IMG/VR virus record: IMGVR_UViG_2671180847_000001
Span: 1 to 7,473 of that record
Reading direction: 5' to 3' (one strand)
Length of the DNA: 7,473 nt
Source of the DNA: a virus
Taxonomy: Monodnaviria > Loebvirae > Hofneiviricota > Faserviricetes > Tubulavirales > Inoviridae
The notes under the pieces are model-generated. The model was not told where the DNA came from. It made no database searches and was given only the letters and a program-made list of their open reading frames with translations. The translations under genes and the position numbers were made by a program. The stretch's first letter is position 1. Each line of letters starts with the position of its first letter. Below are positions 1,767-2,380 of this stretch, one piece after another.

Positions 1767-1973
1767 TCATCCAAGCCATCTTCCTAGACTTAGTTTGTTG
1801 TTTATTGCCCTGATAGCGGCTAATACTAATGCAGCAATTACCATCGTTTTTCCGGTTTCAAGAGAAAATAGGCTTATTAGTACACCAGACCAAAACAAAA
1901 TAATGCTCCATAAGTTTGAATAATATTCAATATTCGCAAATATTATATCTTTTATTTCAATATCTTTATTCAT
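1767..1973 (-). CDS. Hypothetical small membrane protein (68 aa, two predicted transmembrane helices); second gene of the cargo pair
   Basis: ORF MNKDIEIKDIIFANIEYYSNLWSIILFWSGVLISLFSLETGKTMVIAALVLAAIRAINNKLSLGRWLG. Two hydrophobic segments (about residues 21-38 and 44-57). Shine-Dalgarno AAGGAG 6 nt upstream of the ATG (complement of 1980-1985). The ATG (1973-1971) overlaps the stop of the upstream gene (ATGA overlap). AT-rich. Confidence 0.6.
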   Translation of the reverse strand: MNKDIEIKDIIFANIEYYSNLWSIILFWSGVLISLFSLETGKTMVIAALVLAAIRAINNKLSLGRWLG

Positions 1974-2380
1974 ATAAATCTCCTTTTTGATACAAACAAA
2001 GGGTCTACTTGATAGATTAAAGGTACCTCTTCACAGCATTCTATGTCTAAGGCTAATGTTTCTGCTTTTAGTGCATCATTGAATATTAATGCATCTCTTA
2101 GATTTTCCGTCCACTCTATCTCATGTGATTGTTTTTTATGAAAAATTCTCACTTCCTTTAAAAACATACCATTGTCTTTATTTCTTACGGCCCATGCCAT
2201 GGCATTTTCCATAATTATGTTCCTGAATTCGTCTTCTGTGAGTGAACCTTGTATTTTCCCTTCCATTTCATCGATTCTGAATGCAATGTTCTCTGACACT
2301 TCATCTGTTTTTACCACTTTGTATTCTTTGATGACTCTGAAAGCTTCCCTGTATTTCCCGTCATCATCTGACCAAAACAT
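1970..2380 (-). CDS. Hypothetical acidic cytoplasmic protein (136 aa); first gene of the cargo pair
   Basis: Start chosen at the internal ATG (2380-2378; MFWSDDDGKYREAFRVIKEYK...) of the 1970-2500 ORF because a strong Shine-Dalgarno AGGAGGAGG lies 4 nt upstream (complement of 2385-2393), and the longer N-terminal extension runs through a GC-rich hairpin cluster. No family recognised by eye. Confidence 0.6.
   Translation of the reverse strand: MFWSDDDGKYREAFRVIKEYKVVKTDEVSENIAFRIDEMEGKIQGSLTEDEFRNIIMENAMAWAVRNKDNGMFLKEVRIFHKKQSHEIEWTENLRDALIFNDALKAETLALDIECCEEVPLIYQVDPLFVSKRRFI

What the first reader, a model, noticed from the sequence alone, without database searches (positions are those of the whole stretch)
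1767..2380. Unrecognised two-gene cargo operon (acidic 136-aa protein plus 68-aa membrane protein) between the attachment junction and the phage regulator
Two translationally coupled genes (ATGA overlap, strong Shine-Dalgarno for each) sit on the strand opposite to all phage core genes. They are markedly more AT-rich than both the flanking chromosome and the phage core (1900-1980 is almost entirely A/T). They are bracketed by the attachment-junction terminator hairpin on one side and a GC-rich hairpin cluster on the other, a typical 'moron' arrangement. Neither protein resembles a canonical filamentous-phage function. A soluble protein paired with a small two-helix membrane protein is an architecture seen in superinfection-exclusion, abortive-infection, toxin/immunity and some lysogenic-conversion modules, but I cannot assign a family from sequence alone. 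This is the best candidate in the window for an undescribed accessory system.
Basis: partly seen in the sequence, partly recalled or inferred. Interest (0 to 1): 0.85.

Follow-up and report, generated by a model that had tools for sequence, protein, structure and literature searches.

The report
Orphan cargo genes in filamentous prophage
Two small genes of unknown function sit in a highly variable cargo slot of a filamentous virus integrated next to hipA in E. coli; they are real accessory genes, but each also occurs without the other, so they are not a fixed two-part system.

Summary
The two genes are real: 68 aa (1767-1973, minus strand) and 136 aa (1970-2380, minus strand). They share an ATGA overlap and each has a strong ribosome-binding site. 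The 136-aa protein is acidic and soluble; the 68-aa protein has two hydrophobic segments. They belong to a 7.4-kb filamentous phage integrated at dif beside hipA, also sequenced as a free circle.

They fill a slot between a folded, CTX-type attachment site (1665-1765) and a 55-nt conserved hairpin element (2448-2502). Related phages carry unrelated genes in this slot.

The 136-aa protein belongs to a tiny family (12 representatives among 1.84 billion proteins). All members whose context could be read lie in this slot of filamentous phages. The family occurs alone in five contexts, with a different partner in one, and as a pseudogene in one.

The 68-aa gene is a 228-bp cassette, 97.8% identical on an E. 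coli plasmid whose backbone genes match IncI-gamma/K1 plasmids, where it follows an unrelated gene.

So this is cargo, but not an obligate pair. No family, fold or defence model matched either protein. The claim that the pair is more AT-rich than the phage core fails.

Reverse-strand ORFs of unknown function beside dif are already described for Ypfphi, CUS-1 and UPphi. My best guess is lysogen-expressed protection. Interest is moderate to low.

The parts
1665..1765 (.). Phage attachment region. Two inverted dif-like arms (GGTGCGCATAATG... and ...CATTGTGCGCA) flank a GC hairpin (about 1698-1738) with T-runs on both sides. It folds as single-stranded DNA into a forked hairpin of the CTX-type attP kind. 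In duplex or RNA form the central hairpin can act as a bidirectional terminator for the cargo operon.
   Evidence: Homology to the free 7439-bp circle starts at 1665. ssDNA fold is -35.9 kcal/mol, z = -8.2. dif-like matches are found across loci. The same architecture is seen in L006 and L058.
1767..1973 (-). 68-aa small membrane protein (pI 8.1, two hydrophobic segments). Orphan, function unknown.
   Evidence: ORF. Hydropathy. Only near-identical relatives in 5.8 billion proteins. No family hit. Intact in the phage and on two plasmids.
1757..1984 (-). 228-bp cassette: the 68-aa gene, its ribosome-binding site and 10 bp past the stop. It is shared with E. coli plasmids.
   Evidence: 97.8% identity to plasmid locus L005 over exactly 1757-1984. 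L003 carries 1664-2031. Five IncI-gamma/K1 MPF_I plasmids carry an N-terminally truncated copy lying beside IS66-family genes.
1970..2380 (-). 136-aa acidic soluble protein. It belongs to a very small family restricted to filamentous phages. Conserved motifs are W-T-x-N-L-R-D-A and V-P-L-I-Y-Q-V-D-P-L-F.
   Evidence: 12 representatives at E<=1e-3 among 1.84 billion. Alignments A1/A2. AlphaFold model with alignment pLDDT 78.9. No convincing fold match.
2385..2392 (-). Ribosome-binding site GGAGGAGG of the 136-aa gene. It fixes the true start at 2380 rather than the GTG codons at 2476 or 2500.
   Evidence: Sequence. In homologue P0010 the same read-through leader precedes its own GGAGG and ATG.
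2448..2502 (.). Conserved 55-nt triple-hairpin element that marks the upstream edge of the cargo slot. It is probably a single-strand DNA signal such as a complementary-strand priming site.
   Evidence: 98% identical to the If1 intergenic region. Present on 419 plasmids and in 23 IMG/VR inovirus contigs. Hairpin 1 covaries in 5 of 6 pairs; hairpins 2 and 3 are invariant. No Rfam match.
2523..2726 (-). 67-aa phage regulator (phrog_2503, ribbon-helix-helix-like sequence). It lies co-oriented with and upstream of the cargo genes, and its stop codon is about 20 nt from the element.
   Evidence: PHROG hit E = 1e-27. PGAP coordinates mapped from L002. A homologous regulator sits in L006, L012 and L058.

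Best explanation
The locus is a mosaic leftward cargo operon of a dif-integrating filamentous prophage, built from two independently mobile genes.

Shown:
- The genes occupy a hypervariable slot bounded by two cis elements, the 55-nt hairpin element and the folded attP.
- Related phages carry unrelated genes in that slot.
- The 136-aa gene belongs to a small family of filamentous-phage slot proteins and usually occurs alone.
- The 68-aa gene is a 228-bp cassette also found on an IncI-gamma/K1-like plasmid backbone.

Inferred:
- The genes are transcribed leftward together with the small regulator, that is, on the strand that stays active in the lysogen.
- Transcription reads through the hairpin element and stops at the attP hairpin.
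- The two products act separately. The 136-aa protein acts in the cytoplasm. The 68-aa peptide sits as a hairpin in the inner membrane.
- The most likely role is protection of the carrier cell, meaning exclusion of superinfecting filamentous phages or other invaders.

They are not a toxin-immunity pair and not morphogenetic proteins.
For: - Slot and boundaries: homology between the window and the related prophage L004 breaks at 1756/1757 and resumes at 2457.
- In 23 IMG/VR inoviruses with the element, the first antisense ORF starts 40-131 nt after it. A dif-like site follows 0.4-2.3 kb downstream in the 19 contigs where one was detected.
- Slot contents differ between phages, and none of those tested matches a known family.
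- Separability: the family HMM finds members without the 68-aa partner in L004, L008, L012, L010 and L058, a different partner in L006, and a broken copy in L013.
- The 68-aa gene occurs without the 136-aa gene on plasmids.
- Not core: there are no core-family hits, and the core set is complete in the 7439-bp circle.
- Co-orientation with the regulator holds in every phage examined.
- No sigma-70-like promoter lies between the element and the 136-aa start, and no canonical terminator was found there.
- Base rate: 2 of 10 inovirus hypothetical proteins tested blocked other phages (PMC6813254).
Against: - There is no expression data, and the promoter is unidentified.
- The hairpin element could stop leftward transcription.
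- No homology or fold links either protein to any exclusion or defence protein.
- Two phage types with different 136-family alleles sit side by side in one tandem array at dif (L025, L034). These alleles therefore do not obviously exclude each other.
- Close variants of the 136-aa gene differ only by non-synonymous changes (0 synonymous, 4 non-synonymous). The numbers are too small to show selection.
Confidence: 0.5

Rival explanations
1. The two genes form one two-component module. One version has a soluble sensor or antitoxin (136 aa) controlling a small membrane-damaging effector or toxin (68 aa), like lambda RexAB or the GhoS/GhoT type V pair. The other version is a type II-like pair with an acidic upstream antitoxin.
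For: - ATGA overlap with the acidic protein upstream and a basic hydrophobic peptide downstream.
- On plasmids the 68-aa gene again follows a small soluble protein of 110-114 aa. This fits the toxin/antitoxin shuffling reported in inoviruses (PMC6813254).
- 'Soluble then membrane' gene pairs with unrelated sequences recur in the same slot in 4 of 23 related phages.
- The pair is always linked in this phage type.
Against: - The 136-aa family is usually solo, in five independent contexts.
- The plasmid partner is unrelated to it.
- There are no PADLOC, Pfam or NCBIfam toxin or antitoxin hits.
- The overlap is explained by the cassette junction.
Confidence: 0.15
2. The 136-aa family is a lysogeny or integration accessory factor that works on the neighbouring cis elements. 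It might, for example, assist or regulate Xer recombination at the folded attP, or replication at the hairpin element. The 68-aa gene would then be a passenger.
For: - Strict synteny (regulator, then family member, then attP) holds in divergent phages, including L006, which has no nucleotide similarity and a different Rep type, as well as L010 and L058.
- The family is absent from the non-integrating If1.
- The invariant polar residues W, N, R and D suggest a binding site.
Against: - Most phages with the same element and attP type lack the family: 22 of 23 IMG/VR contigs and L014-L017.
- A pseudogenised copy persists in an integrated prophage.
- No member matches DUF3653 (XafT) or any DNA-binding family.
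- CTX-type integration needs no phage factor (established knowledge, PMC3089051).
Confidence: 0.2
3. The 136-aa protein is an anti-defence factor: a small acidic protein made early to neutralise host restriction or another immune system.
For: - It is acidic, small, fast-diverging and phage-restricted.
- The gene is antisense to the packaged strand and lies directly downstream of an element that is also common on conjugative plasmids, which likewise enter cells as single strands.
Against: - The structural matches are at noise level.
- The gene is co-oriented with the lysogeny regulator rather than with early replication genes.
- There is no evidence of a single-strand promoter; the hairpin stems are too short to carry -35 and -10 boxes.
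Confidence: 0.1
4. One or both ORFs are not genuine protein-coding genes.
For: - Both are orphans.
- There are few synonymous differences among close variants.
Against: - The 136-aa family keeps conserved motifs at 30-44% identity across phages and gives a confident fold from the alignment.
- The 68-aa ORF keeps its ribosome-binding site, start codon and reading frame in three different genomic contexts and in hundreds of assemblies.
Confidence: 0.03

Closest known systems
attL-adjacent accessory ORFs of dif-integrating enterobacterial filamentous phages: Ypfphi YPO2271/YPO2272, CUS-1 orf1/orf1a (PMC4266046), and UPphi h4/h5 (PMC7307601)
   Same: - Small reverse-strand ORFs lie between the dif/att junction and the phage regulator and replication module.
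- They vary between otherwise near-identical phages.
- They have no database homologues and no known function.
- The prophages sit as tandem arrays at dif.
   Different: - The phage backbone differs: gene II and gene V are If1-like and gene III is unrelated to If1.
- Sequence relationship to those ORFs was not shown.
- Here the slot is precisely delimited by a conserved 55-nt element and a CTX-type folded attP.
CTXphi RS2/ig-1 region and ctxAB cargo
   Same: - Xer-dependent integration uses a folded single-strand attP made of two inverted dif-like sites.
- A leftward repressor gene sits next to the attP region.
- Cargo lies at the genome edge.
   Different: - In CTXphi the cargo (ctxAB) is at the other end, on the core strand, and has a known function.
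- Here the cargo lies between the hairpin element (a putative origin signal) and attP, on the repressor strand.
Lambda RexA/RexB and other lysogen-expressed exclusion operons downstream of a repressor
   Same: - A soluble protein plus a membrane protein are co-oriented with the repressor.
- They are plausibly expressed in the lysogen.
   Different: - There is no sequence or fold similarity.
- The membrane protein has 2 segments rather than 4.
- The partners are separable in nature, whereas RexA and RexB work together.
PfsE of Pseudomonas Pf phages (PMC8764522)
   Same: A small membrane peptide encoded by a filamentous prophage that blocks superinfection. This is the functional model proposed here for the 68-aa protein.
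   Different: - No homology to the 68-aa protein.
- PfsE is about 30 aa and targets type IV pili.
- The target of the 68-aa protein is unknown.
GhoS/GhoT type V toxin-antitoxin
   Same: An upstream small soluble alpha/beta protein is followed by a downstream two-segment membrane peptide of about 60 aa.
   Different: - No homology.
- The upstream family occurs alone in most phages.

Membership tests
Core filamentous-phage proteins (pI-pX) | Sequence match to a core family (Pfam or PHROG) or a position within the conserved plus-strand gene order | tested here: not met
   Neither protein has a hit. Genes II, V, VIII, III, VI (DUF2523), I (Zot) and IV (secretin) are all present elsewhere on the plus strand.
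Accessory (moron) cargo of temperate filamentous phages | Variable presence among close relatives and dispensability | tested here: met
   The slot holds different genes in L004, L014-L017 and 23 IMG/VR contigs. A pseudogenised copy is in L013. The family is absent from If1.
Accessory (moron) cargo of temperate filamentous phages | Own promoter and terminator, expressed in the lysogen | tested here: inconclusive
   A hairpin with T-runs follows the operon. No sigma-70-like promoter lies upstream. No expression data are available.
Type II toxin-antitoxin pair | Adjacent co-directional small genes, often overlapping by 4 bp | tested here: met
   ATGA overlap at 1970-1973.
Type II toxin-antitoxin pair | Homology of either partner to a known toxin or antitoxin family | tested here: not met
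   No hit in Pfam, NCBIfam or PADLOC.
Type II toxin-antitoxin pair | Consistent co-occurrence of the two partners | tested here: not met
   The 136-aa family is solo in L004, L008, L010, L012 and L058. The 68-aa gene occurs without it on plasmids.
Known anti-phage defence systems (PADLOC-DB v2) | Match to any defence protein model | tested here: not met
   Zero hits for both proteins and for ten other slot proteins.
XafT-type Xer activation factors (DUF3653) | DUF3653 domain | tested here: not met
   No Pfam hit at E<=1 in any of 11 family members.
Class II holins / pinholins (about 70 aa, two membrane segments) | Match to holin families and a charged C-terminal tail | tested here: not met
   No Pfam or PHROG holin hit. 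The C-terminal tail carries only three positive charges.
Ypfphi YPO2271/2272, CUS-1 orf1/orf1a, UPphi h4/h5 | Sequence homology to those ORFs | tested here: inconclusive
An exhaustive search found only 12 relatives of the 136-aa protein, none of them named. Positional equivalence is clear (PMC4266046, PMC7307601).

The most novel reading that the evidence does not exclude
The slot between the conserved 55-nt hairpin element and the folded attP is a hotspot for undescribed membrane-acting exclusion or abortive-infection modules in enterobacterial filamentous phages. In that reading the 136-aa and 68-aa proteins work together as a soluble sensor plus a two-segment membrane effector, with the effector also deployed on IncI-gamma/K plasmids. 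'Soluble then membrane' pairs of unrelated sequence recur in the same slot in 4 of 23 related phages, which is compatible with such a theme.
Probability: 0.12. Interest if true: 0.7.

Novelty: new member of a known kind. Interest (0 to 1): 0.35.

Why it matters
Filamentous prophages at dif are common in pathogenic Enterobacteriaceae, and their accessory genes are the part most likely to change host behaviour, whether virulence, phage resistance or plasmid uptake.

This work shows that the two genes are true cargo. It defines the exact boundaries of the slot that receives such cargo, and it shows gene traffic between a filamentous phage and conjugative plasmids. That turns a vague 'hypothetical protein pair' into two separately testable genes.

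It does not reveal a new mechanism. The proteins remain without function, so the immediate value is as a well-delimited target for cloning and phage-challenge experiments.

Tried and rejected
- Profile searches of both proteins against Pfam, PHROGs, PADLOC and NCBIfam found nothing significant. Scanning all 11 family members gave only a weak match of 5 members to phrog_7738, of unknown function.
- The word-indexed search of 5.8 billion proteins found only near-identical E. coli copies. A profile search added few.
- The single-sequence AlphaFold model was unusable (pLDDT 37).
- The PDB sequence profile search found only noise.
- tblastn of the 136-aa protein against GenBank phages and PLSDB plasmids found no match.
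- I considered I-pilus specificity, given If1-like replication genes and an IncI-type plasmid link. I rejected it as evidence because gene III shows no similarity to If1 gene III.
- I considered the plasmid 110-114-aa partner as a distant family member and rejected it (hhalign probability 0.1%).
- I considered a beta-clamp-binding motif in the conserved C-terminal QVDPLF. It rests on memory only and could not be tested, so it is not claimed.
- Synonymous versus non-synonymous counts among close variants were too few to interpret.
- Searches for the protein accessions in the literature found nothing.
- The literature search for G4-type priming signals did not identify the hairpin element.

Full report
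**What the window is.** Bases 1-1589 encode hipB and hipA of E. coli. From 1665 onward the window is 99.3-99.5% identical to a 7439-bp circular record from E. coli A37 that was deposited as a plasmid. That record carries a complete filamentous-phage gene set: replication protein, G5P, major coat, DUF2523, Zot and a secretin. It is therefore the free replicative form of the phage. In strain 2196 the same phage lies in tandem copies beside hipA. Only 4 of 5426 complete E. coli genomes hold the whole 1590-2800 stretch. The exact 68-aa protein is nevertheless indexed in 698 blocks of the assembly collection, so the phage is not rare in draft assemblies.

**Checking the observation.** The two ORFs, the ATGA overlap, both ribosome-binding sites, the acidity of the 136-aa protein and the two hydrophobic segments of the 68-aa protein are all as described. 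The compositional claim holds only against the chromosome. The pair is 33.9% GC, against 36.9% for the phage core and 35.2% for gene II, and core windows range from 31.2 to 39.3%. The longer 168-aa and 176-aa versions of the upstream ORF, found in some annotations, read through a conserved non-coding element. A 44%-identical homologue (P0010) has the same 'leader' followed by its own GGAGG and ATG, which places the true start at 2380.

**The brackets.**
- The hairpin after the 68-aa stop is the centre of a roughly 100-nt structure. Two inverted dif-like arms pair around an unpaired central region (-35.9 kcal/mol, z = -8.2). This is the folded single-strand attP known from CTXphi (PMC3089051, PMC3442271).
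- The GC-rich cluster upstream is a 55-nt element at 2448-2502. It is 98% identical to part of the 'major intergenic region' of phage If1.
- The element is also present in 23 IMG/VR inovirus contigs and on 419 plasmids, 384 of them conjugative.
- Its first hairpin covaries in 5 of 6 pairs (21 double changes; 0 of 500 shuffles reach this). The following 35 nt are invariant. Rfam has no match.
- I infer a single-strand DNA signal, most likely for complementary-strand priming. This is not shown.

**A hypervariable slot.**
- Homology between the window and a related hipA/dif prophage (L004, 80% identical in the replication genes) breaks at 1756/1757 and resumes at 2457.
- In all 23 IMG/VR contigs an antisense ORF starts 40-131 nt after the element. 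A dif-like site follows 0.4-2.3 kb downstream in the 19 contigs where one was detected.
- The slot contents are very diverse. Ten of these slot proteins match nothing in Pfam or PADLOC.
- Eight of the 23 contigs carry a predicted membrane protein in the slot, and four show a 'soluble then membrane' order.
- Other hipA/dif prophages (L014-L017) carry further unrelated ORFs.

**The 136-aa protein.**
- An exhaustive HMMER search of 1.84 billion representatives found 12 relatives at 35-44% identity. They share W-T-x-N-L-R-D-A and a C-terminal V-P-L-I-Y-Q-V-D-P-L-F motif.
- Every member whose context could be read lies in a filamentous phage, after the regulator and before attP. The contexts are:
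  - L004, solo.
  - L008 and L012, solo, the same allele behind two different regulators.
  - L013, broken into two frames.
  - L010, solo with a dif-like site just after it.
  - L058 from Lelliottia, solo. This was the only hit among 100,044 species-representative genomes.
  - L006, a metagenomic inovirus with a different Rep type and no nucleotide similarity. There it is followed by an unrelated soluble 136-aa ORF and a folded attP.

**The 68-aa protein.**
- Only near-identical copies exist in the databases searched.
- Window 1757-1984 holds the gene, its ribosome-binding site and 10 bp past the stop. It is 97.8% identical to a segment of an E. coli plasmid (L005), where it follows an unrelated 110-114-aa protein.
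- L005 itself was not replicon-typed. Its repA, CopG/RelE and neighbouring genes match those of five IncI-gamma/K1, MPF_I conjugative plasmids. In those five the 68-aa gene is N-terminally truncated and lies beside IS66-family genes.
- A third plasmid (L003) carries attP, the 68-aa gene and 58 bp of the 136-aa gene. This is a phage remnant.
- The TGA of the ATGA overlap is part of the cassette's own ATG-AAT. The last residues of the 136-aa protein are encoded by the cassette's ribosome-binding region.

**Interpretation.**
- Shown: the genes are accessory, they lie in a defined recombination-prone slot, and they are separable.
- Inferred: they are transcribed leftward with the regulator. No sigma-70-like promoter and no canonical terminator lie between the element and the 136-aa start.
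- Inferred: each gene acts on its own. I favour lysogen-expressed protection. The model for the 68-aa protein is a small prophage-encoded membrane peptide such as PfsE (PMC8764522). The base rate is that 2 of 10 inovirus hypothetical proteins tested blocked other phages (PMC6813254).
- Confidence is 0.5 for the whole statement. It is much higher for the cargo and separability parts, and about 0.3 for the protective role specifically.
- Rivals are a true two-component or toxin-antitoxin module (0.15), an integration or replication accessory role for the 136-aa family (0.2), anti-defence (0.1), and non-coding ORFs (0.03).

**Comparison with what is known.** Reverse-strand ORFs of unknown function next to dif are already described for Ypfphi and CUS-1 (PMC4266046) and for UPphi phages (PMC7307601). 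This locus is a new member of that kind, with two uncharacterised protein families. The more unusual object noticed here is the conserved 55-nt element shared by filamentous phages and conjugative plasmids. It lies outside the finding and is recorded under observations made in passing.

Noticed in passing
window 2448-2502: A 55-nt triple-hairpin element. Hairpin 1 covaries in 5 of 6 pairs, and the next 35 nt are invariant. It is 98% identical in phage If1, and a 46-nt stretch occurs in Alteromonas phage phiAFP1. It is found in 23 IMG/VR inovirus contigs and on 419 mostly conjugative plasmids. In every aligned case a gene starts 40-130 nt downstream on the strand antisense to the phage core. 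It may be a single-strand priming signal or a cassette boundary. Rfam has no match.
   Followed up: partly
window 1665-1765: The attachment region folds as single-stranded DNA into a forked hairpin of two inverted dif-like arms (z = -8.2), the CTX-type attP. The same design is seen in the unrelated inovirus L006 (6895-7021) and in Lelliottia L058 (4386-4481).
   Followed up: partly
L005 3858-4085; L003 6001-6368; L018/L019 4001-4165: The 68-aa gene is shared between the phage and E. coli plasmids, indicating phage-plasmid gene traffic. Five plasmids typed IncI-gamma/K1 carry an N-terminally truncated copy lying beside IS66-family genes. L003 retains attP plus a stub of the 136-aa gene.
   Followed up: partly
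L011 (If1) about 5110-5300, antisense; L040 and L050: The annotated 'major intergenic region' of If1 contains an unannotated antisense ORF (62 aa) that starts 51 nt after the element. Its N-terminus matches an intact 133-aa ORF in IMG/VR contig L050, so If1 may carry a decayed cargo gene.
   Followed up: no
L025 and L034 (assemblies GCA_003983995.1, GCA_040813265.1): Tandem arrays at dif mix two related phage types that differ in secretin and gene III sizes. The second type's gene sizes match the L004 phage, which carries a different 136-family allele. Co-residence is therefore tolerated.
   Followed up: no
L035, L036, L039, L052 slot regions: Unrelated 'soluble protein followed by membrane protein' gene pairs recur in the same slot of other inoviruses. 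None matches Pfam or PADLOC.
   Followed up: partly
L002 8170-9000 versus window 647-1134: In strain 2196 hipA has a 488-bp internal deletion relative to the window and is annotated only as a HipA N-terminal domain protein.
   Followed up: no
window 2381-2500; L001 4884-5390: Automated annotation sometimes extends the 136-aa gene to 168 aa by starting at a GTG inside the conserved hairpin element. The extension is non-coding sequence that happens to be open in that frame.
   Followed up: yes
L037 (IMG/VR), 111-aa ORF 68 nt after the element: A possible distant relative of the 136-aa family core domain (hhalign probability 50%, E = 1.6e-4, shared ...VPLI... motif). The family may be broader than sequence searches show.
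   Followed up: partly
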